64,000 bases of DNA from Parcubacteria group bacterium (GTDB lineage Bacteria > Patescibacteriota > Minisyncoccia > Moranbacterales > GCA-2747515), in contig JBAZXC010000004.1 in assembly GCA_041660065.1 (NCBI GenBank), positions 10,098 to 74,097 on the forward strand, in the 5' to 3' direction. Under the pieces are notes generated by a model that worked only from the letters and a program-made list of their open reading frames with translations, made no database searches and was not told where the DNA came from. The translations under genes and the position numbers were made by a program. This document shows, in pieces, positions 7,804 through 63,297 of this stretch (positions are counted from its first letter, which is position 1; each line of letters starts with the position of its first letter).

Positions 7804-9591
7804 TTATTTTTTAATATTCAATATGACGTAGAAATCACTTCCTTCTCCAAGTGTACTTGCTACGTAAATATCGCCACCGAGTTGCGTGATCAATTTTTTT
7901 GCAATTGGGAGACCCAAGCCGGAACCTCCGGATATACGCTTCATATGCCCCCCAACCTGTTTGAATTTTTTGAAAATATCATGTAAATCTTCTGTTGCAA
8001 TACCAATGCCGTTGTCTTTAACGTGTATTTCAATTCTATCAGAATCAAGTTTTTTCGTAAAAATTTCTATTTTGCCGATGTCAGGTTTTGTGAATTTGAT
8101 GGCATTATCGATCAAATTGATGATGATACGTCGCAATTGAGTTGGGTCTGTCATAATGCGCACATGAGGATTTGTCGCGTGGAATATAAGGGCTTTGTTT
8201 TCTGTGGCACAGCGCATACGAAAATCGCTGTAAGTTTTTTCGATCAAGTCACTGAGGTTCACATCCTCAATATCAAATTGCATTTTTCCAGACTCCAATT
8301 TTTCCAGATCAAGCATGTTTGACACCATTTCCAACAGTTTATCCGTGTTATTGATGATTTTTTCTGTGTAATTTTTTTGTGTCTCATTTACTTCACCAAA
8401 CATTCCGTTCAATAACATCGATGCAAAGCCCTTAATGATCGTAAGGGGCGTCCTGAGTTCATGTGAGGTGATCGAGATGATCTCATTCTTCATTTTATCA
8501 ACCTTCTTTAACTCCTTGTAGGATTTCTGCATGTTTTCACGGAGTTTTCTTTTCTCTGTGATATTTTCTACGGAGGCGTCAAAATATAAAGCATTTTTTC
8601 CTGGAATGATCTTCCCATATATTTTTATCCAGAGAGCGTTATTTTTGAATGTCAATATCTCGAGTTCCTCTCCTATAACCTCATGTTTTTTTAAAAGTAA
8701 GTTTTTGAATTTTTCTTTTTCATCCTTGTTCTTGAAAAAATCAATAAAGTCAAAATCTGGTTTTTGCAGATGTTTCTTATCGGGGATTTCCAAGAGTTCG
8801 AGAAGGGCATTATTCCATAGAAGCGGTGGGGCGGGCTTATCCATGCGGATGCGAAACATACCAATTGGCAGGTGTTGGATCAATGACACAAACTCAGATT
8901 TTAAAAGGTTTTTTTGCTCCTCAATTTTTGATCCAACTCTAAGGATGAAGGCGAGTAATCCGATCAAAAGGATTAAAATCAAAAGAATGATCCCAATGAT
9001 GCGCCACATGATCGTAACAATCTCTTTTTGAACATCATCGATATACATTCCTGTGCCAATCAGCCATCCCCATGGTTTAAATACGGTCACATGAGATAGC
9101 TTCGGCACTGCGATCGAAGTGTCACCGTGTTTTGGCATCCACATATATTTTACATAGCCCTCCTCGTCATTTCTTGCCATAGCAAGCATAACGGCGCCAA
9201 AGTTGTAGCCGTTTTCATCGGAGAGGTTTTCCAAGTTGGTGCCACGTACCGTGTCGTATGGATGGATAAAAATAATGCCGTCATTGACATTATTTACCCA
9301 AAAATAGTCATCGCCATTTTTGCCGTAACGATAATTGCTGATGATCTCTGTGGCGATTTTTTTTGCTTCTTCCTCATCTAACTCGCCGGAAATAACTCTG
9401 TCATTGAGATTATTCAGTGTTGCAATCAACAGACTTGACATTTCATGGAGCATGTACTGTTTTTCGCTCATGAGAGACTGATTGATGCGGGGAATGATAT
9501 AAAATGCAAACGCGGATGTGGTAAAAATCACAAAAAGCACTGTGATAAATGCGACTTTGCCGAATGTTGTGCTGAGCATTTTTTTGAACAT
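7804..9591 (-). CDS. sensor histidine kinase with extracytoplasmic Cache-like sensor
   Basis: 595 aa; an N-terminal TM, a periplasmic sensor of about 150 aa, a second TM, an H-box SHELRTPLT, and HATPase motifs DNGIGI / GGSGLGL. Confidence 0.8.
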   Translation of the reverse strand: MFKKMLSTTFGKVAFITVLFVIFTTSAFAFYIIPRINQSLMSEKQYMLHEMSSLLIATLNNLNDRVISGELDEEEAKKIATEIISNYRYGKNGDDYFWVNNVNDGIIFIHPYDTVRGTNLENLSDENGYNFGAVMLAMARNDEEGYVKYMWMPKHGDTSIAVPKLSHVTVFKPWGWLIGTGMYIDDVQKEIVTIMWRIIGIILLILILLIGLLAFILRVGSKIEEQKNLLKSEFVSLIQHLPIGMFRIRMDKPAPPLLWNNALLELLEIPDKKHLQKPDFDFIDFFKNKDEKEKFKNLLLKKHEVIGEELEILTFKNNALWIKIYGKIIPGKNALYFDASVENITEKRKLRENMQKSYKELKKVDKMKNEIISITSHELRTPLTIIKGFASMLLNGMFGEVNETQKNYTEKIINNTDKLLEMVSNMLDLEKLESGKMQFDIEDVNLSDLIEKTYSDFRMRCATENKALIFHATNPHVRIMTDPTQLRRIIINLIDNAIKFTKPDIGKIEIFTKKLDSDRIEIHVKDNGIGIATEDLHDIFKKFKQVGGHMKRISGGSGLGLPIAKKLITQLGGDIYVASTLGEGSDFYVILNIKK

Positions 9592-52602: not shown

Positions 52603-52694
52603 TGGAGAGGTGCCAGAGTGGTCGAATGGGACTGACTCGAAATCAGTTGTCTCGTTTTAACGGGACCCAGGGTTCGAATCCCTGCCTCTCCGCC
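52603..52694 (+). tRNA. tRNA-Ser (anticodon CGA)
   Basis: Acceptor GGAGAGG/CCTCTCC, anticodon loop aCTCGAAa, long variable arm, T-loop GGTTCGAATCC, encoded CCA. Confidence 0.75.
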
Positions 52695-52702
52695 AACAAG
52701 AA

Positions 52703-52750
52703 ATCTTATTATCATGCAAATGATAGTGGGATTTTTTGATTGGAGAAGGG
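52703..52750. repeat. about 46-bp direct repeat, copy 1 (AATCTTATTATCATGCAAATGATAGTGGGATTTTTTGATTGGAGAAGG)
   Basis: Near-identical to 63252-63297 (AATCCTATTATCATGTAAATGACAATGGGATTTTTTGATTGGAGATG); the two copies bracket about 10.5 kb of accessory genes next to tRNA-Ser(CGA). Confidence 0.6.
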
Positions 52751-54389: not shown

Positions 54390-55748
54390 GTGAAGGAGGT
54401 TGATTTCATGAAAACATGTTTAGATTTTAAGAGAGCGTTGGTGGAGAGTGGCCTGATGGATTTTGCAGAGGAAACATCCTTGGCAGTTTGGTTGGGTGAC
54501 GGCATGAAGATGCTTCGAATTTTGGAGAGAAAGATTATAGAGCTTTTTGAACTGCAGGGTTATGAAGAGGGACGTTTCCCGCTCTTAGCTCACAGAAGTC
54601 ATTTCAACAAGCTTTGTATGGAAATTTGCAATTTTGATGGAGGTGTTTTTTGCATTGAAGGAAAAAGTGACTTACTTCTGCGACCCTCTGGTGAAATTGT
54701 GTTTTATCCTCTTTTTGCAAAGTGGTCAAAAAAAAGAGGTCTTCCTCTAAGGTTTTTTTCCATTGGACAAATGTTTCGTCAAGGATCTGCTCAAAAGATA
54801 TTTCGTCAGTGTGAGAATGATATGTTTGTAGAAGGACATGCCTCATTTAAAAATGCAGGAGAGGCGCATATTGAAGTAGATCGTCTTAATGATATTTTGA
54901 GGAGTTGGTTTTCCATTCTTTCACTTCCAGTCTTGATCGTGGACCGTCCAGGTGAAACAAATAAGCCTGTGGCAGAAAGGCACATTGGTTTTGATGGCAT
55001 TTTGCCAACGGGGGAGACCATTCTTCTTGGCGCCTCGTATTATCAAGGACAAATTTTTTCTCGTGTCTTTAATATTAAAAATCGAGACACTGCAGATTTT
55101 GCATATCAGGCGGAAGCAGGATTTTCATCCAGAGCGATCCTAGCATCTCTATGGGTGCATGCGGACAAAAAAGGATTGGTATTGCCGAGTAGTTTTGCTC
55201 CTATTCAAGTGGCAATCATTCCTAGCAGTAAAGATGCTGGCATGCTTTTGCAGGCAGAGAAAATAAAAAAAGATCTCAATGTGGCTGGAATTCGAGTAAG
55301 GATTCAAATCCCAGAACGAAATAAAAGAGTCTTTTATCAGAATTTGGAGATATCCGGCTATCCGGTAGTAATTCGATTGAATGAAACAGACACTTGTCAA
55401 GTTTACTATCGTTTTGATGATCGATGTGATAGTGATCCAAAAAATCTTTTATTGGAAGTGAGTGAATACTTGAAAAATTTGGACGGCAGAATTCTGAGAA
55501 AAGCAGTGGATGCTCATATTTCCAAGATGATTTTTGTTTGCGAAGATGCAAGAATAATCATTGATGTCCTTAATAGTCAAAAAGTAGCTCAGATATTCCT
55601 CTGTAGTGAATCTACCTGTTTGCATGGAGTTAAAACCAGCGTTGGTCGAGGTGAGATGATTGGTTGGGATTATTCTAGTCAAGAGCGGGGTGCGTGTATT
55701 CAATGCGGAAAGGAAGGTAGACGTGCATATTATGCTAGAAGAATCTAG
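54390..55748 (+). CDS. archaeal/eukaryote-type prolyl-tRNA synthetase homolog with substituted motif 2
   Basis: 452 aa colinear with class IIa ProRS: LLLRPSGE, motif-2 region GQMFRQGSAQKIFRQCENDMFVEGH (the canonical FRxE is altered to FRQG), motif-3-like GFSSR, anticodon-binding domain APIQVAIIPS, and a C-terminal Zn motif CIQCGKEGRRAYYARRI. Confidence 0.65.
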   Translation: MKEVDFMKTCLDFKRALVESGLMDFAEETSLAVWLGDGMKMLRILERKIIELFELQGYEEGRFPLLAHRSHFNKLCMEICNFDGGVFCIEGKSDLLLRPSGEIVFYPLFAKWSKKRGLPLRFFSIGQMFRQGSAQKIFRQCENDMFVEGHASFKNAGEAHIEVDRLNDILRSWFSILSLPVLIVDRPGETNKPVAERHIGFDGILPTGETILLGASYYQGQIFSRVFNIKNRDTADFAYQAEAGFSSRAILASLWVHADKKGLVLPSSFAPIQVAIIPSSKDAGMLLQAEKIKKDLNVAGIRVRIQIPERNKRVFYQNLEISGYPVVIRLNETDTCQVYYRFDDRCDSDPKNLLLEVSEYLKNLDGRILRKAVDAHISKMIFVCEDARIIIDVLNSQKVAQIFLCSESTCLHGVKTSVGRGEMIGWDYSSQERGACIQCGKEGRRAYYARRI

Positions 55749-55930
55749 ATAATAGAAATTGTTTAAATCAAAAAGCCGAGGATGAATTTCATCTGAGGCT
55801 TTTAAATTTTTTATGATGTTCTTTCGATATCCATTTTTGTTAGATATTAAGATGTTTTTTATGAAAGTCCTTCATAGTGAAAAATATTGTAGGAAAATTT
55901 CATCGTTGTTTTTGCAGGTTTTATTAATTA

Positions 55931-56037
55931 TTCATCAAAAACGTTCCAATATTGTCCCACACTCCCCGCCCTGTACCGTACGGTACAGGGCTGTTTTTGT
56001 ATAGTGGGGTATGGACGTGGAACTTTTTGTGATATTC
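55931..56037. repeat. cassette-boundary composite repeat (full copy)
   Basis: Left arm TTCATCAAAAACGTTCCAATATTGTCCCACACTCCCCG, hairpin CCCTGTACCGTACGGTACAGGG, right arm CTGTTTTTGTATAGTGGGGTATGGACGTGGAACTTTTTGTGATAT; the arms are imperfect inverted repeats of each other. Confidence 0.7.
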
Positions 56038-56059
56038 TTATTATGAAATTTAAAAATAT

Positions 56060-56854: not shown

Positions 56855-56860
56855 TAATTT

Positions 56861-56966
56861 CTCATCAAAAACGTTCCAACATCGTCCCACACTCCCCGCC
56901 CTGTACCGTACGGTACAGGGCTGTTTTTGAATAAGGAGGTAGGGATGTGGAACTTTTTGTGATATG
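56861..56966. repeat. cassette-boundary composite repeat (full copy)
   Basis: CTCATCAAAAACGTTCCAACATCGTCCCACACTCCCCG + CCCTGTACCGTACGGTACAGGG + CTGTTTTTGAATAAGGAGGTAGGGATGTGGAACTTTTTGTGATATG. Confidence 0.7.
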
Positions 56967-57082
56967 ATAATCGTATAAATTGAAATCATTTATCTAGGAC
57001 CGTCCTAGTTATATATTTCGAGGTTTTTATTCCCTGTAGAGCGTGTATTGACACAAATACGCTCTACAGGTAAGATAGCAAT

Positions 57083-58054
57083 ATGAAAGCAACATTATCT
57101 AATTCCGATTATTTACGTAATTTTGACCGCTTTATCAGCAGTTTAGATTTTTCTGATCCTGATAATCTTCGTATTTATTCTCATCCAAAGTGGATCAATG
57201 TGCATCCTGCTGTTTTAGCTTTAATTGTAGAAATGGCGATGCGGGCAGGTAAGCAGAATGTTACGTTTGAAAATATTACAGCAACTTCCGGTTCGTATCT
57301 TGATCGTATGGGGCTTTTTGAATTCACACATCAAAAGTCACCATATACTATTAACAAGAAAGAAGAATCGGGAAGATTTATACCCGTCACGATTATCAAA
57401 AATTCTACCGAGCAGTCAAAATTTATTACTGACATGATTCCTCTTTTGCATTTACCTGCTGATAAAACGGATGCTATTAAATATACGATTGGGGAACTGC
57501 TTCGTAATGTATTGGAACACTCAGGAAGTACGCATGGAGCGATTGTTGCGGCTCAATACTATAAAAAATCAAACACAATTCGTATTGGTATTTGTGATGG
57601 CGGTATTGGTATTAAAAAGAGTCTGCAACACTATTGGGCTTCTCGGTCAAAGACAGATATAGCTGCAATCAAATGGGCAATGGTACCCGGTATTTCGGGG
57701 ACAACACGAAAAGAAGGCGGAACAGAAGATAATGCTGGTGCCGGATTATTTTTCATTAAATCTATCGCGCAAGTAGCACGTAACTATTTCATGATTTACA
57801 GTGGATCCGGTATTTATAAACTACTACTTCACGATAAGAGAATAGAGAAACCACGGCTCCATTCCGATCCGGATGACGATCGTCATTCTGAACGCGACGA
57901 CGCCCCTTATTTTCAAGGGACATTGGTGGCAATAGATTTATCCCTTGAAAATAAATCTGAATTTACCCAGCTTCTCTCTGCGATACGAGAAGTTTATGGC
58001 AAGGCGGTTAGGGATCGTAAGCGAAAGAAATATAAAGAACCAAAATTTATATGA
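57083..58054 (+). CDS. GHKL-type ATPase (HATPase_c-like) with N-terminal uncharacterised domain
   Basis: 323 aa; N-box ELLRNVLEHS and G1 box ICDGGIGI; the stop overlaps the next start (ATGA). Confidence 0.6.
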   Translation: MKATLSNSDYLRNFDRFISSLDFSDPDNLRIYSHPKWINVHPAVLALIVEMAMRAGKQNVTFENITATSGSYLDRMGLFEFTHQKSPYTINKKEESGRFIPVTIIKNSTEQSKFITDMIPLLHLPADKTDAIKYTIGELLRNVLEHSGSTHGAIVAAQYYKKSNTIRIGICDGGIGIKKSLQHYWASRSKTDIAAIKWAMVPGISGTTRKEGGTEDNAGAGLFFIKSIAQVARNYFMIYSGSGIYKLLLHDKRIEKPRLHSDPDDDRHSERDDAPYFQGTLVAIDLSLENKSEFTQLLSAIREVYGKAVRDRKRKKYKEPKFI

Positions 58055-58365
58055 GTAAAATAATTAAGATTAAGGATCTTGTCGGTGATTTTGCAGAAAA
58101 TAAAGACGTGGCAAAAGATTTACGTGTCACCGATATTATGCCGACCTTGGCAGATGGTCAGGAGGTCATATTGGATTTTTCTGGAGTTAGCGGTACAACT
58201 CAATCATTTATTCACGCCTTGATCTCTGAACCAATTCGGCGGTTTCGTGATGTAGCTTTGGAAAAGATACACTACAAAAATTGTTCTGATGTTGTAAAAG
58301 AAGTTATTAAAACGGTGTCTGAATATATGCAGGAAAGTCTTGATTCGGAAAATTATGAAAAATAA
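58051..58365 (+). CDS. STAS-like small protein (DUF4325-like partner of the GHKL ATPase)
   Basis: 104 aa; translationally coupled to the ATPase; ...EVILDFSGVSGTTQSFIHALI... resembles the STAS-like DUF4325. Confidence 0.45.
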   Translation: MSKIIKIKDLVGDFAENKDVAKDLRVTDIMPTLADGQEVILDFSGVSGTTQSFIHALISEPIRRFRDVALEKIHYKNCSDVVKEVIKTVSEYMQESLDSENYEK

Positions 58366-58449
58366 TAACGATAGATGCAATTTAGTTGTAGAAAATCCGC
58401 AAAGCACTGTGGATGCTGAATAATTGGGGTCAGGCACCTTTTATCCAGG

Positions 58450-58498
58450 GGCTGTTTTTGTATAGAGAGGTAGGGACGTGTGGAACTTTTTATGATAT
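58450..58498. repeat. cassette-boundary repeat, right arm only
   Basis: GGCTGTTTTTGTATAGAGAGGTAGGGACGTGTGGAACTTTTTATGATAT. Confidence 0.6.
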
Positions 58499-58524
58499 GC
58501 TGAAAGCATATTTTATATAAATTT

Positions 58525-59196: not shown

Positions 59197-59207
59197 ATCA
59201 TATTTTT

Positions 59208-59278
59208 TCATCAAAAAAGTTCCAACGTCGTCCCACTCCTTGTAAAGGAAATCACGCAATTTACTGCGTGGTTTTTTT
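59208..59278. repeat. cassette-boundary repeat, left arm + terminator hairpin
   Basis: TTCATCAAAAAAGTTCCAACGTCGTCCCACTCC, then CACGCAatttacTGCGTGGTTTTTTT. Confidence 0.6.
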
Positions 59279-59515: not shown

Positions 59516-59926
59516 ATGAAACAGTATAGTATTTTTATAAGTCATTCATGGGCTTATGGCGAAAACTATAATAGGCTCATCAAAATGCTTAATAATGATC
59601 CCTATTTTCATTTTAAAGATTATTCTGTTCCAAAGCATGATCCCATTCATAATGCTCCAAATCAACTTCTTTTAAAGCAAGCGATTGCAAATCAAATAAG
59701 ATTTTGTGATGTCGTAATAATATTAGCGGGTGTTTATTCAACATATAGCAAGTGGATCAATATTGAAATTGACATTGCTAAGAATGGCTTTCAATATCCA
59801 AAATCTATTCTTGCAATTGAGCCTTGGGCTAGTGAAAAAACATCACAAATTGTCAAGAAAAATGCCGATAAAATAGTTAGGTGGCAAACATGTTCAATTG
59901 TTGATGCAATAAAAGGATTAGCCTAA
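59516..59926 (+). CDS. TIR-like domain protein (DUF1863/ThsB-like)
   Basis: 136 aa; YSIFISHSWAYGENY...CDVVIILAGVYSTYSKWINIEIDIA fits the bacterial TIR-like pattern (FIShS ... S.W...E); AT-rich (about 30% GC); 12 nt upstream of the next gene. Confidence 0.5.
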   Translation: MKQYSIFISHSWAYGENYNRLIKMLNNDPYFHFKDYSVPKHDPIHNAPNQLLLKQAIANQIRFCDVVIILAGVYSTYSKWINIEIDIAKNGFQYPKSILAIEPWASEKTSQIVKKNADKIVRWQTCSIVDAIKGLA

Positions 59927-59938
59927 ATCATAATCTTT

Positions 59939-60466
59939 ATGGATATTAAAAAATTGGAAGAAAAACTATTTGTTTCGAAGAATGAAAATTATGGAGATAA
60001 ATATATAGAACACTTATTGGAACAATATAAGGTTTATATTGACTCTGCAGAAAAAATAAGTGATCGTAGACAAAAATCAAATGAATTTTTTCTTGCTTTA
60101 AATAGTAGCTTGGTTGCATTATTGGGATATATACTTGCGAAAAATAGTGATTCAGAAATAGTAAGCTTGTTCATTCTATCTTCTATTTCAGGGATCGTAT
60201 TATGTTATTTTTGGTATAGAATTATTTATTCTTATAAATGTTTAAATAGTGGAAAATTCAAAGTTATTCACATGATTGAAAGACGATTACCACTAGCGCT
60301 TTATGACACAGAATGGGAAATATTGGAAAGAGGAAAAAACAAGAAAGTTTACTGGCCGTTCTCGCATATTGAGCTCATGGTCCCTTGGATATTTATTATT
60401 ATTTATATAACCATTTTATTTCTCAACCTATGTCCAAAAATAGGAGCGTTGATATGTGCAATGTAA
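59939..60466 (+). CDS. small 3-TM protein, SLATT-like candidate effector (paralog 1)
   Basis: 175 aa; an N-terminal amphipathic helix, two closely spaced TM helices (FFLALNSSLVALLGYIL / IVSLFILSSISGIVLCYFWY), a soluble loop and a C-terminal TM; overlaps the next gene by 11 nt. Confidence 0.5.
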   Translation: MDIKKLEEKLFVSKNENYGDKYIEHLLEQYKVYIDSAEKISDRRQKSNEFFLALNSSLVALLGYILAKNSDSEIVSLFILSSISGIVLCYFWYRIIYSYKCLNSGKFKVIHMIERRLPLALYDTEWEILERGKNKKVYWPFSHIELMVPWIFIIIYITILFLNLCPKIGALICAM

Positions 60467-61001
60467 ATGGAGGATAAATATGAAAAAAGAAAAAAACATA
60501 GAATTAATTTATTCTGAGGTAAAAGAGAGATTAAATAGGCAGATAGATTCCATAGATCAGGTGGCAGTTAAATTTAATTTTTTACTTGCGCTTAATAGTA
60601 TAATATTGGCTTCACTCTTACAATCTAACCTTTTAGGATCTCGAAAGGAATGTATTTCATGGATGATGTTTTTTGCAGTAGTGTGCTTTTTTTTATCAAT
60701 CCTATTTGACTTGAGAGGGCTAGTTATGCAAAAGTATAGACGAGATCCTGATCCACAAAAACTTTATGAAGGATATTTCAACAAATCAAAGCAATATACT
60801 CAAGAAGTCTTAATCATTAATTACGTGCATGCTTTCAATGAAAATGTGAAAAAATTACATCATGTTAACAAATTTTTTGCTTATTCAATATTTTCTTCCT
60901 CTATTGCTTTAATATTTGTTTTTATAAATTTAATTAATCCTAATTTAATTTTCATATGGAAAATGATAATAAAGATGATGTGTCAGATATGCCAAAGTTA
61001 G
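60456..61001 (+). CDS. small 3-TM protein, SLATT-like candidate effector (paralog 2)
   Basis: 181 aa; same architecture as the upstream gene; shared LALNS(I/S)(I/L)LAxLL motif. Confidence 0.5.
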   Translation: MQCKWRINMKKEKNIELIYSEVKERLNRQIDSIDQVAVKFNFLLALNSIILASLLQSNLLGSRKECISWMMFFAVVCFFLSILFDLRGLVMQKYRRDPDPQKLYEGYFNKSKQYTQEVLIINYVHAFNENVKKLHHVNKFFAYSIFSSSIALIFVFINLINPNLIFIWKMIIKMMCQICQS

Positions 61002-61127
61002 AAACTGAAGATGAAACGCCAAAATTTGATCCGAAACTAGTTAGCTATGAGGAAAAGGGTTATGATCCACATAGTAAAAATGTAAAGAATTTTTCGAAAA
61101 AGGACGACAGTGAATAGTTGTATATAA

Positions 61128-61598
61128 ATGACAATCCTAAAAAAATCATATTTGAAGAACAAGGATGAAGATCTGATTCATCTTCGAGCAATAAAATTTG
61201 GGATGAATTTTCCTAATGGTTTTATGTATGAACATTTTAAGAAGCGATACGAAACACATAGAGTGAATGATTGGAAAATTGTTGATGAATTTTTGCAAGA
61301 AGCATATAATAATAAAAATGGAACTTCTAACCGAATCACTCCATTTGTTTTGCTTGAGAGAGGGCCAAATGGGAACGCAGATACTTCAAAATATATATTG
61401 AGTTATGAGGCATATTTTAATTATTTGGCATATCGAAATGCAAAGAGGACTATTTGGATTGGTGTCGGAGCAATAATAGTTAGCGTAGTATTGTCTTTAT
61501 TAACTTTTATTGATAATACATATGAAGACAACAATAATAAAAAAGATGAAAGATATCACTATCAAAATATTTTCAGAGGCTCGCAAAATTGCAAATGA
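61128..61598 (+). CDS. hypothetical protein with C-terminal TM
   Basis: 156 aa; AT-rich; no motif. Confidence 0.45.
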   Translation: MTILKKSYLKNKDEDLIHLRAIKFGMNFPNGFMYEHFKKRYETHRVNDWKIVDEFLQEAYNNKNGTSNRITPFVLLERGPNGNADTSKYILSYEAYFNYLAYRNAKRTIWIGVGAIIVSVVLSLLTFIDNTYEDNNNKKDERYHYQNIFRGSQNCK

Positions 61599-61655
61599 AA
61601 AAATGAATCAAATATAGTGTTATTAATTAGAAATTTGACAGAAAATATCGTTTGT

Positions 61656-61745
61656 TATCAAAAAAGTTCCAACATCGTCCCACACTCCCCGCACAGATTT
61701 TAAGTCCAAGATAATGGGACTTTTTGATGGGGAAGTTTGTCATTT
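61656..61745. repeat. cassette-boundary composite repeat (variant)
   Basis: TATCAAAAAAGTTCCAACATCGTCCCACACTCCCCG, hairpin AAGTCCaagataatgGGACTT, then TTTTGATGGGGAAGTTTGTCAT. Confidence 0.65.
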
Positions 61746-62465: not shown

Positions 62466-62502
62466 TAATCATTTTACTTTTGATAAAATGATACTGTTTT
62501 AT

Positions 62503-62628
62503 TCATCAAAAAAGTTATAACATCATCCCACACTCTCCACCAGTTGCTTGCGAAGAAGATTTAGAACAGCTCGTTTTTACGGGCTGTTTTTGTATGGGGA
62601 GATAGAGATGTTGATTTTTTTGTGATAC
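62503..62628. repeat. cassette-boundary composite repeat (full copy, divergent hairpin)
   Basis: TTCATCAAAAAAGTTATAACATCATCCCACACTCTCC, variable hairpin region ...CAGCTCGTTTTTACGGGCTG, then TTTTTGTATGGGGAGATAGAGATGTTGATTTTTTTGTGATAC. Confidence 0.65.
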
Positions 62629-62665
62629 AGTTAAAATAATAGTTAATTTTATTAACGTAAACCAT

Positions 62666-63180: not shown

Positions 63181-63297
63181 CAAAAAATCTCCACCATCGT
63201 CATGTATCATGCGATGCATGACGCAGTCTCACACTCCCCGCTAACAGAAAATCCTATTATCATGTAAATGACAATGGGATTTTTTGATTGGAGATGA
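63181..63297. repeat. cassette-boundary composite repeat (variant) overlapping copy 2 of the 46-bp direct repeat
   Basis: ...CCACCATCGTCatgtatcatgcgatgcatGACgcagtCTCACACTCCCCG ... AATCCTATTATCATGTAAATGACAATGGGATTTTTTGATTGGAGATG. Confidence 0.6.

What the first reader, a model, noticed from the sequence alone, without database searches (positions are those of the whole stretch)
57083..58365. Translationally coupled GHKL-ATPase and STAS-like small protein pair as a separate cassette
A 323-aa protein carries a Bergerat-fold ATPase core (ELLRNVLEH, ICDGGIGI) behind an unknown N-terminal domain. Its stop overlaps the start of a 104-aa STAS-like (DUF4325-type) protein (ATGA). The pairing resembles a partner-switching kinase/antagonist module (RsbW/RsbV-like logic) but with non-canonical size and gene order. 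It occupies its own repeat-bounded cassette next to the TIR module.
Basis: inference. Interest (0 to 1): 0.5.

Follow-up and report, generated by a model that had tools for sequence, protein, structure and literature searches.

The report
Orphan kinase–STAS switch from restriction operon
This two-gene unit encodes a serine-kinase-like ATPase and its small STAS-type partner, related to the recently described DNA-damage-sensing CapK/CapS and VapK/VapS immune switches; here it has lost the restriction-enzyme gene it once headed, which points to an undescribed link between such switches and type I restriction.

Summary
ORFs 57083-58054 (323 aa) and 58051-58365 (104 aa) overlap by ATGA. The first has a SpoIIAB/RsbW-like GHKL fold, and the second is DUF4325 (STAS-like). 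The pair is adjacent in 84 of 85 homologous loci, is fused into one protein in sister families, and is under strong purifying selection.

The closest known systems are VapK/VapS(/VapC) and CapK/CapS (EMBO J 2026). There, an ssDNA-activated STAS-GHKL kinase phosphorylates a conserved STAS serine, which releases a toxin or a repressor. The window's kinase shares a full-length family with a VapK-like kinase, and its partner matches the solved VapS structure. Invariant T50-Q51-S52 lies at the VapS phospho-site. No PIN toxin or wHTH domain is present.

New findings:
- The conserved mobile unit is 57013-58423.
- It carries a covarying 12-bp palindrome over a sigma-70-type promoter 6 nt from the ATG.
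- It ends with a short hsdR 5' remnant.
- In relatives the pair lies between hsdS and hsdR of type I restriction operons.

Here it is an orphan inside a 10.5-kb tRNA-Ser island of a CPR bacterium. Kinase activity, the ssDNA trigger and the partner's target are all inferred. I rate it a new variant of a known kind, of moderate interest.

The parts
57033..57070 (+). Palindromic operator: 12-bp perfect inverted repeat CCTGTAGAGCGT (57033-57044) / ACGCTCTACAGG (57059-57070) separated by 14 nt that contain the -35 box
   Evidence: Sequence. Both arms are exact and unique in the window. The element is conserved upstream of every homolog. Arms are 92.8% complementary across 29 lineages against 81.1% in shuffles (0/500) and at most 49% when slid. 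Eight of 12 positions show compensatory double changes.
57048..57076 (+). Sigma-70-type promoter: TTGACA (57048-57053), 17-nt spacer, TAAGAT (57071-57076). The -10 box ends 6 nt before the ATG, which predicts a leaderless or near-leaderless mRNA
   Evidence: Best promoter match in the region, 10 of 12. The -10-to-start distance is 6 nt in most lineages, range 5-9. The transcription start is predicted, not measured.
57083..58054 (+). K gene: 323-aa STAS-GHKL kinase-like protein (VapK/CapK-like). Layout: N-terminal STAS domain ~1-120, Bergerat-fold ATP-binding domain ~125-290, long C-terminal helix 294-318 with basic tail
   Evidence: phrog_3364 matches at E 1.3e-27 over residues 12-292, the same family as a Deinococcus VapK-like kinase. 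HHalign to that kinase gives 97.6%, E 3.4e-12. dN/dS is 0.04-0.09.
58051..58365 (+). S gene: 104-aa DUF4325 STAS-like partner (VapS-like). It has the invariant motif D42-F43...G48-x-T50-Q51-S52-F53-x-H55-A56-L57 and an acidic C-terminal tail, and is translationally coupled to K by the ATGA overlap
   Evidence: Pfam DUF4325 at E 5.8e-12. Invariant residues come from 53 unique partners. The family profile hits PDB 9z7o 'Escherichia VapS' at E 0.0013, with VapS S48 aligned to Q51. HHalign to the Deinococcus VapS-like protein gives 76.6%, E 2e-5. dN/dS is 0.08-0.23.
58340..58423 (+). 5' remnant of a type I restriction subunit gene (hsdR), reading ...CNLVVENPQSTVDAE*. It overlaps the 3' end of S, as the intact hsdR does in relatives, and is truncated by TAA at 58421-58423
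   Evidence: tblastn with the L007 HsdR N-terminus matches 33 residues from -25 to +55 nt relative to the S stop, at E 0.007, which is weak on its own. It is supported by DNA homology to loci where the same stretch continues into intact or longer hsdR.
57013..58423 (+). Limits of the horizontally shared unit: operator-promoter + K + S + hsdR stub
   Evidence: blastn homology to 20+ loci from other phyla starts at 57013-57033 and ends at 58343-58422. Nothing outside this span is shared.
56858..56983 (.). Upstream flanking repeat: a full ~125-nt imperfect palindrome with a terminator-like centre (GCCCTGTACCGTACGGTACAGGGC followed by a T-run)
   Evidence: Repeat families D1-D3. Folds as a long hairpin, z -4.5. 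The centre scores as an intrinsic terminator.
58449..58514 (.). Downstream flanking repeat: right half only of the same element
   Evidence: family D1. No hairpin forms, z -1.7.

Best explanation
The locus is an orphaned 'K-S' signalling pair of the VapK/VapS and CapK/CapS kind.

K (323 aa) is a STAS-GHKL serine/threonine kinase. S (104 aa, DUF4325) is its STAS-type substrate.

Proposed mechanism, by analogy with the characterised relatives:
1. K is switched on by single-stranded DNA produced during DNA damage or phage attack.
2. K phosphorylates an invariant Ser/Thr at the start of helix alpha-2 of S (S52 or T50).
3. Phospho-S lets go of whatever it was holding.

The unit is expressed from its own sigma-70-type promoter as a probably leaderless, translationally coupled K-S transcript. 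A palindromic operator brackets the -35 box. The operator co-evolves with the module, so it is most likely bound by a module-encoded protein, giving autoregulation.

In the ancestral arrangement, hsdM-hsdS-[operator/promoter-K-S-hsdR], the restriction subunit gene starts -25 to +18 nt from the S stop. HsdR is therefore made from the same promoter and is probably translationally coupled to S. The module most likely made restriction conditional on a damage or ssDNA signal. It could do this by de-repressing the K-S-hsdR transcript, or by S holding HsdR inactive as VapS holds VapC.

In this window hsdR has been lost, leaving a short stub. The intact K-S pair persists inside a tRNA-Ser genomic island of a CPR bacterium.

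Shown here: domain identities, co-conservation, fusions, invariant catalytic and acceptor residues, operator conservation and covariation, the hsdR context and remnant, and purifying selection.

Inferred: kinase activity, the acceptor residue, ssDNA activation, who binds the operator, and what S controls.
For: Kinase identity:
- GHKL fold nearest SpoIIAB, RsbW and SiaB.
- Intact N, G1 and G2 boxes.
- K matches phrog_3364 over its full length, as does a Deinococcus VapK-like kinase from an ATP-binding/STAS-like/PIN operon.
- HHalign between K and that kinase gives 97.6%, E 3.4e-12.

Partner identity:
- S is DUF4325.
- Its profile hits solved VapS, with S48 falling within one residue of the invariant T50/Q51/S52.

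Functional linkage of K and S:
- S follows K in 84 of 85 loci.
- K-S fusions exist in a Planctomycetota family of 147 hits, whose AF2 model has pLDDT 89.7 and pTM 0.89.
- Both window proteins match different parts of phrog_5816.

Regulation and origin:
- Operator-promoter conserved and covarying and unique in the window.
- hsdR is intact directly after S in L007, L018 and L021, and truncated in L003/4/5/15, L008, L011, L012, L019, L020 and the window.
- HsdS lies upstream in 5 of 33 dereplicated loci.

The orphan copy is functional: dN/dS is 0.04-0.23 with dS up to 1.2.

The mechanism of the relatives comes from PMC13373217.
Against: - Neither K nor S has a recognisable DNA-binding domain. CapS uses a wHTH that S lacks, so the operator's binder is unidentified.
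- There is no effector in the window: no hsdR, hsdM, hsdS or PIN gene. The output of the orphan pair is therefore unknown.
- Only about a quarter to a third of dereplicated loci still have R-M genes next to the pair. Many sit among housekeeping genes.
- The S-to-VapS match is modest (E 0.0013; HHalign 76.6%).
- The VapS phospho-serine aligns to Q51, not to a Ser/Thr, so the acceptor assignment depends on a one-residue shift.
- No model coordinates or complex prediction were available, so the geometry of S at the ATP site is untested.
- The window's hsdR remnant alone is weak (E 0.007).
Confidence: 0.7

Rival explanations
1. The pair is a self-contained toxin-antitoxin or abortive-infection module. 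K is the effector, for example by phosphorylating essential host proteins or sequestering a host factor. S is its antagonist, and the palindrome provides TA-style autoregulation that makes the pair addictive. This would explain why it outlives the decaying restriction operon.
For: - A two-gene, overlapping, apparently autoregulated unit.
- It persists intact under purifying selection after loss of hsdR in many genomes.
- It is spread by horizontal transfer across CPR phyla, Nanoarchaeota and Proteobacteria at up to 96% identity.
- DUF4325 proteins act as antitoxins in VapKSC and pair with VapC-like PIN.4.
- It lies in a genomic island among other small defence-type genes.
Against: - In the characterised relatives K is the sensor, not the toxin, and S is its substrate (PMC13373217).
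- Natural K-S fusions are hard to reconcile with a toxin neutralised by a labile antitoxin.
- No toxicity data exist.
- No matches were found on sequenced plasmids, where addiction modules are usually common.
Confidence: 0.15
2. The pair is a classical partner-switching regulator of transcription. K is an anti-sigma factor that sequesters a sigma factor or other transcription factor, and S is the anti-anti-sigma, as in RsbW/RsbV or SpoIIAB/SpoIIAA.
For: - The closest solved folds are SpoIIAB and RsbW.
- The partner is of STAS type.
- Source annotations call homologs 'anti-sigma regulatory factor'.
Against: - No sigma-factor or PP2C phosphatase gene lies in the conserved unit or recurs in its neighbourhood.
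- Gene order is the reverse of rsbV-rsbW.
- K carries an extra STAS domain and a C-terminal helix that anti-sigma kinases lack.
- The module moves between phyla with unrelated sigma repertoires.
- Its promoter is a housekeeping TTGACA/TAAAAT type.
- The nearest sequence relatives are VapK-like, not RsbW.
Confidence: 0.07
3. The pair is a non-functional relic of a decayed restriction-modification locus, carried along in a variable island.
For: hsdR is reduced to a stub, there are no R-M genes in the window, and the surrounding region is a patchwork of partial repeats.
Against: - Both ORFs are intact with all catalytic and motif residues.
- dN/dS is 0.04-0.23 against relatives that are also mostly orphans.
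- The operator and promoter are perfectly preserved, with both arms exact.
Confidence: 0.04

Closest known systems
VapK/VapS/VapC (vapKSC) anti-phage toxin-antitoxin system (Chambers et al., EMBO J 2026, PMC13373217; VapS-VapC structure PDB 9z7o)
   Same: - K has the same STAS + GHKL architecture without an HTH. It matches the same full-length family (phrog_3364) as a VapK-like kinase from a Deinococcus ATP-binding/STAS-like/PIN operon, with HHalign 97.6%.
- S is a DUF4325 STAS domain with a short C-terminal tail, like VapS.
- Gene order is K then S.
- An invariant Ser/Thr lies at the VapS S48 region.
   Different: - No VapC/PIN gene follows S, either in the window or in any of 85 related loci.
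- The gene that ancestrally follows is hsdR of a type I restriction enzyme.
- K has an extra C-terminal basic helix.
- A strongly conserved 12-bp-arm palindrome overlaps the promoter upstream of K. No such element is described for vapKSC in the sections I read.
- The family is centred on CPR/Patescibacteria.
CapK/CapS, 'controller of adjacent pathways' (same paper)
   Same: - A GHKL kinase with a STAS domain is immediately followed by its STAS substrate.
- Palindromic operators overlap promoters and give autoregulation.
- The pair sits beside immune genes, and 88 of 443 capKS lie directly downstream of an R-M system.
- The proposed logic is a damage or ssDNA signal leading to phosphorylation and then release.
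   Different: - CapK has an N-terminal HTH, and CapS has a C-terminal wHTH that binds TTAA half-sites. The window's K and S have neither.
- The operator here is upstream of K, not between K and S or after S, and has a different sequence.
- The S profile does not detect CapS in the PDB at E <= 1.
SpoIIAB/SpoIIAA and RsbW/RsbV partner-switching modules
   Same: - The partner is of STAS type, with a Ser/Thr at the N-cap of helix alpha-2.
   Different: - No sigma factor or phosphatase is present.
- Gene order is reversed.
- K is more than twice the size, with an added STAS domain and C-terminal helix.
- The module is mobile and associated with defence genes.
Genes embedded in type I R-M operons (e.g. 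the anticodon nuclease PrrC between hsdS and hsdR) and C-protein control of type II R-M (from my own knowledge)
   Same: - The pair sits between hsdS and hsdR, like prrC.
- The palindromic operator over the promoter, tandem second operator copies and a leaderless transcript heading the restriction gene resemble C-protein/C-box control of R genes.
   Different: There is no sequence or fold relationship to PrrC or to HTH C-proteins. The resemblance is positional and regulatory only, and is an inference.

Membership tests
VapK/VapS(/VapC) | Kinase with STAS + GHKL domains and no HTH | tested here: met
   [not shown]
VapK/VapS(/VapC) | Small STAS (DUF4325) partner with a short C-terminal region, encoded directly after the kinase | tested here: met
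   Pfam DUF4325 at E 5.8e-12. The profile hits VapS 9z7o at E 0.0013. The Deinococcus VapS-like protein is DUF4325 at E 1.5e-14. The genes are adjacent in 84 of 85 loci.
VapK/VapS(/VapC) | Absolutely conserved Ser/Thr in the partner's STAS domain (VapS S48) | tested here: inconclusive
   T50, Q51 and S52 are invariant in 53 sequences. However, both alignments put the VapS serine opposite Q51, one residue from either candidate.
VapK/VapS(/VapC) | VapC-like PIN toxin as third gene | tested here: not met
   tblastn with a VapC-like query finds nothing in the window or in 85 loci. Pfam scans of downstream neighbours show no PIN.
VapK/VapS(/VapC) | Kinase activated by ssDNA through an aromatic residue in the STAS domain (VapK F54, CapK W68) | not testable with these tools
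   W37 is invariant in the N-domain and is a candidate. Its equivalence could not be checked because no coordinates or complex models were available.
CapK/CapS | CapK N-terminal HTH and CapS C-terminal wHTH DNA-binding domain | tested here: not met
   No HTH or wHTH appears in Pfam or NCBIfam scans. S is 104 aa, all of it STAS plus a tail. The K model starts directly with the alpha/beta domain.
CapK/CapS | Palindromic operator(s) overlapping promoter(s) of the module | tested here: inconclusive
   A conserved, covarying palindrome overlaps the promoter. Its position and sequence differ from the CapS sites, and its binder is unknown.
RsbW/RsbV-type partner switching | SpoIIAB/RsbW-like GHKL serine kinase fold | tested here: met
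   [not shown]
RsbW/RsbV-type partner switching | Cognate sigma factor and/or PP2C phosphatase in the operon; antagonist gene precedes kinase gene | tested here: not met
   The conserved unit holds only K and S. No sigma or PP2C family appears among recurrent neighbours. Gene order is K then S.
Integron gene cassette | Cassette ends in an attC site (R''/R' cores RYYYAAC / GTTRRRY) in an array next to an integron integrase | tested here: not met
   The flanking repeats are imperfect palindromes, but by my reading they lack the canonical cores, and the copy downstream of the pair is a half copy. No integrase-like ORF was seen in the island. No attC covariance model was available, so this is not a formal exclusion.
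Type I R-M operon component | Located between hsdS and hsdR and co-transcribed with hsdR | tested here: inconclusive
   This holds for relatives L007, L018 and L021, where hsdR starts -25 to +14 nt from the S stop, and as remnants in about nine further loci and the window. Most other dereplicated loci have no R-M genes adjacent, and none lie in the window.

The most novel reading that the evidence does not exclude
The K-S pair defines a third, undescribed deployment of the CapK/VapK-type ssDNA-sensing switch: a built-in gate on type I restriction.

In the ancestral hsdM-hsdS-[K-S-hsdR] operon, the STAS-only protein S either holds HsdR inactive, as VapS holds VapC, or represses the K-S-hsdR promoter together with K and without any HTH. 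Restriction would then be licensed only after a DNA-damage or ssDNA signal.

The module has since become an autonomous, horizontally mobile unit that outlives its restriction enzyme and is especially common in CPR bacteria.
Probability: 0.3. Interest if true: 0.65.

Novelty: new variant of a known kind. Interest (0 to 1): 0.5.

Why it matters
CapK/CapS and VapK/VapS were described only in 2026. They act as damage-sensing switches that control abortive-infection operons or a PIN toxin.

This family would extend that logic to the most widespread front-line defence, type I restriction. It also extends it to CPR/Patescibacteria, whose small genomes rely heavily on R-M systems.

If S or K gates HsdR, that would be a new answer to an old question: how type I systems avoid self-restriction and establish themselves after horizontal transfer.

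The covarying palindrome with no HTH protein in the unit is also a concrete lead to a new mode of DNA recognition by a STAS or GHKL protein. If that fails, it points to a structured DNA element.

For annotation, it gives a name and a testable role to thousands of 'ATP-binding protein / DUF4325' gene pairs.

Tried and rejected
- **Linked-chain co-fold.** I modelled a natural fusion instead, but coordinates are not exposed. The distance from T50/S52 to the ATP site could not be measured.
- **Whole-fusion fold search.** Foldseek of the fusion against the PDB found only the SpoIIAB-like core and no whole-architecture match.
- **Plasmids and phages.** tblastn of K found nothing at E <= 1e-5.
- **Exact-sequence look-up.** The window's K is not on record.
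- **Misassigned HsdR query.** I first took the ~1030-aa protein downstream in the large Saccharibacteria cluster (L022) to be HsdR. Its sequence is a secreted or surface protein, so that cluster was excluded from the hsdR counts.
- **MADS.** PADLOC mad2/mad5 hits among neighbours are HsdM/HsdS-like cross-hits. K and S themselves hit no mad model.
- **attC/integron reading of the repeats.** No canonical core sites by my reading, a half copy downstream, no integrase, and no Rfam family.
- **N-domain versus DUF4325.** The profile comparison is not significant. STAS identity of the N-domain rests instead.
- **Wider regulon.** The operator occurs only once in the window.
- **Literature.** Searches for STAS + GHKL + R-M, partner-switching + anti-phage, and HATPase_c_2 + defence returned nothing useful. 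The key paper was reached only through the PDB hit to VapS.
Full report

**The pair is a conserved unit.** The 323-aa protein has 2238 relatives at E <= 1e-3 in the 5.8-billion-protein set, and the best 120 are nearly all 320-324 aa. An exhaustive profile search finds 4089 clusters at 50% identity with E <= 1e-3, of which 103 reach E <= 1e-30; full-length members are almost all 315-330 aa. In 85 fetched loci the DUF4325 gene lies immediately downstream in 84. The exception is a contig that ends 191 nt after K. Most loci show the same 4-nt overlap. Longer relatives are natural K-S fusions (P0237, P0250, P0270). That fused subfamily (147 hits, mainly Planctomycetota) carries precomputed Pfam STAS_2 + HATPase + DUF4325. 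Its model is confident (pLDDT 89.7, pTM 0.89). It is homologous to the split proteins domain by domain: GHKL 99.9%, partner 99.7% and N-domain 88.9% HHalign probability. Both window proteins also hit different parts of a single 441-position phage family, phrog_5816. Gene fusion and strict adjacency together make a physical and functional partnership very likely.

**Closest known system.** A profile of the small partner detects one solved structure, 9z7o 'Escherichia VapS' (E 0.0013, nearly full length). This led to Chambers et al., EMBO J 2026 (PMC13373217). That paper describes two systems. CapK (HTH-STAS-GHKL) is a kinase activated by single-stranded DNA. It phosphorylates S54 of CapS (STAS-wHTH), which breaks the CapS dimer and releases it from palindromic operators, de-repressing adjacent immune operons. 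VapK (STAS-GHKL) is proposed to phosphorylate S48 of VapS (STAS plus a short C-terminal helix), the antitoxin of the PIN nuclease VapC; this step was modelled and mutationally supported rather than shown directly, because VapK was insoluble. Using the VapS fragment I found a vapKSC-type operon on Deinococcus gobiensis plasmid P5, encoding an ATP-binding protein (300 aa), a STAS-like protein (121 aa) and a PIN protein (179 aa). Its kinase and the window's K hit the same family, phrog_3364, over their whole lengths (E 1.4e-41 and 1.3e-27), and align at 97.6% HHalign probability (E 3.4e-12). The Deinococcus kinase's N-domain passes Pfam's STAS threshold, and its small partner is DUF4325. The partner carries an invariant D42-F43...G48-x-T50-Q51-S52-F53-x-H55-A56-L57 motif in 53 unique sequences. 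Both alignments place the VapS phospho-serine opposite Q51, one residue from T50 or S52. A phospho-acceptor is therefore plausible, but the exact residue is unsettled.

**Differences from the known systems.** There is no VapC/PIN gene in the window or in any of the 85 loci. There is no HTH on K and no wHTH on S. The pair is therefore neither a canonical vapKSC nor a canonical capKS.

**Limits of the shared unit, and its promoter.** DNA homology between the window and loci from other phyla begins at 57013-57033 and ends at 58343-58422. The shared unit is thus an upstream control region, K, S and a little downstream sequence. The upstream part holds a perfect 12-bp inverted repeat (57033-57044 and 57059-57070) that brackets a TTGACA -35 box. 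It is followed directly by a TAAGAT -10 box that ends 6 nt before the ATG. This arrangement is present upstream of every homolog examined. Across 29 lineages the arms are 92.8% complementary, against 81.1% in shuffles (0 of 500 reach the observed value) and at most 49% in register-shifted controls. Eight of 12 positions show compensatory double changes. The -10-to-start distance is 6 nt in most lineages (range 5-9), which predicts a leaderless transcript. Several loci have a second tandem copy upstream, and the L064 group has a copy between S and the next gene, sucC. The palindrome occurs nowhere else in the window. The arm sequence changes with the module as it moves between phyla, so the most economical reading is an operator bound by a module-encoded dimer. 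That is an inference, because neither protein has a known DNA-binding domain. A structured DNA element is not excluded.

**Origin in a type I restriction operon.** In L007, L018 and L021 an intact hsdR starts -25 to +14 nt from the S stop. In L003/4/5/15, L008, L011, L012, L019 and L020 truncated hsdR remnants of 41-292 residues follow at the same place. The window keeps 33 residues (58340-58423...CNLVVENPQSTVDAE*). That match is weak alone (E 0.007) but lies within the DNA homology block. HsdS lies upstream in 5 of about 33 dereplicated loci, and HsdR-type domains lie downstream in 4-5. Other neighbours include a PLD-SNF2 helicase with an Eco57I-like methylase (L006), a second type I system (L008), a reverse transcriptase (L016), GmrSD, Mrr and AbiEii. 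Many loci, however, are flanked by housekeeping genes. The ancestral arrangement for the window's lineage is therefore hsdM-hsdS-[operator/promoter-K-S-hsdR], with hsdR co-transcribed and probably translationally coupled to S.

**The orphan copy is functional.** The window has no hsdR, hsdM or hsdS. Even so, K and S are under strong purifying selection against relatives that are mostly orphans too: dN/dS is 0.04-0.09 for K and 0.08-0.23 for S, with dS of 0.2-1.2. The module therefore does something without an adjacent restriction gene.

**Setting in the window.** The host is a CPR/Patescibacteria bacterium; its ClpC is closest to Moraniibacteriota and Parcubacteria sequences. K homologs at 94-96% identity occur in WOR-1, Saccharibacteria, Jacksonbacteria, Sungiibacteriota, Falkowbacteria and Magasanikbacteria, which indicates recent horizontal transfer. 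The pair lies in a low-GC stretch (0.30-0.37 against about 0.42). That stretch is bounded by a 61-nt direct repeat whose first copy overlaps the 3' end of tRNA-Ser (52686-52746 and 63234-63294). This marks a ~10.5-kb tRNA-linked island. Inside it, same-strand genes are separated by ~125-nt imperfect palindromes with terminator-like centres. Full copies lie at 55928-56053, 56858-56983 and 62499-62646. Only a right half lies at 58449-58514, and only left halves at 59204 and 61651. I could not show these to be attC sites, and no integrase is visible. Neighbouring genes are an amidohydrolase, a DUF2268 Zn-protease, and a ThsB-type TIR protein with an 8xMP membrane protein.

**Mechanism and verdict.** Best supported is an orphan VapK/VapS-type sensor pair. 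K, probably ssDNA-activated, phosphorylates S at T50 or S52 and so changes what S binds. The unit is autoregulated through its palindromic operator. Its ancestral job was most likely to make hsdR expression or HsdR activity conditional on a damage signal. The domain, conservation, fusion, operator, context and selection results are shown here. Kinase activity, the trigger, the operator's binder and the target of S are inferred from the 2026 work on relatives.

Rivals are a TA/Abi module with K as effector (0.15), a classical anti-sigma switch (0.07) and a dead relic (0.04, largely refuted by selection).

I rate the finding a new variant of a known kind, with interest 0.5. The kinase-STAS switch itself is now published. 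Its coupling to type I restriction, the STAS-only partner without an effector or HTH, the covarying operator and the CPR-centred spread are not described in the literature I could search.

Noticed in passing
window 52686-52746 and 63234-63294 (tRNA-Ser at 52604-52695): A 61-nt direct repeat (87% identical). Its first copy overlaps the last ~10 nt of tRNA-Ser(CGA), and the two copies bracket a ~10.5-kb low-GC region (0.30-0.37 against ~0.42). It looks like a tRNA-integrated genomic island with att-like ends. No integrase gene is visible inside.
   Followed up: partly
window 59516-61598: A ThsB-type TIR protein (136 aa, Pfam ThsB_TIR E 9e-17) is directly followed by an 8xMP 'octameric membrane protein' (175 aa, E 2e-42). 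Two further small ORFs without Pfam hits follow (181 and 156 aa). This is a possible TIR + membrane-effector defence module.
   Followed up: partly
window 55928-56053, 56858-56983, 62499-62646 (full); 58449-58514 (right half); 59204-59245 and 61651-61692 (left halves): A family of ~125-nt imperfect palindromic intergenic repeats with a terminator-like GC hairpin and T-run at the centre. They separate same-strand genes in the island. Half copies suggest insertions or deletions within the elements. No Rfam match, and canonical attC cores were not recognised.
   Followed up: partly
window 54390-55748: A 452-aa class II aminoacyl-tRNA-synthetase-like protein at the start of the repeat array. It has borderline Pfam scores (tRNA-synt_2b 29.4 bits against 29.3; HGTP_anticodon below threshold). 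It may be a divergent aaRS paralog carried by the island.
   Followed up: no
L064 (and the related L065-L077 group) about 9262-9313, between the S stop and sucC: A second copy of the module's palindrome (CCCGTAGAACGT...ACGCTCTACGGG) sits directly upstream of the succinyl-CoA synthetase gene sucC in a Saccharibacteria lineage. The operator may have been co-opted to control a housekeeping gene.
   Followed up: no
window 57083-58051 (residues 71-245) against PADLOC model PDLC02567: K matches the N-terminal 76-245 of a 1750-position DISARM DrmA model (E 8.5e-12). S weakly matches internal or C-terminal parts of two type III methyltransferase models (E 0.004-0.006). K- and S-like domains therefore appear to be fused to other R-M-type enzymes.
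   Followed up: no
P0270 family (alignment A5) and phrog_5816: Single-chain STAS-GHKL-DUF4325 fusions form a sizeable family in Planctomycetota (147 hits, ~425 aa). There is also a 441-position phage protein family of the same kind. I found no literature on either.
   Followed up: partly
L086 3527-3988 (Deinococcus gobiensis plasmid P5): The vapKSC-type operon there is preceded by a same-strand 153-aa HTH (Xre/MarR-like) regulator gene. Some VapKSC loci may therefore have a separate transcription factor.
   Followed up: no
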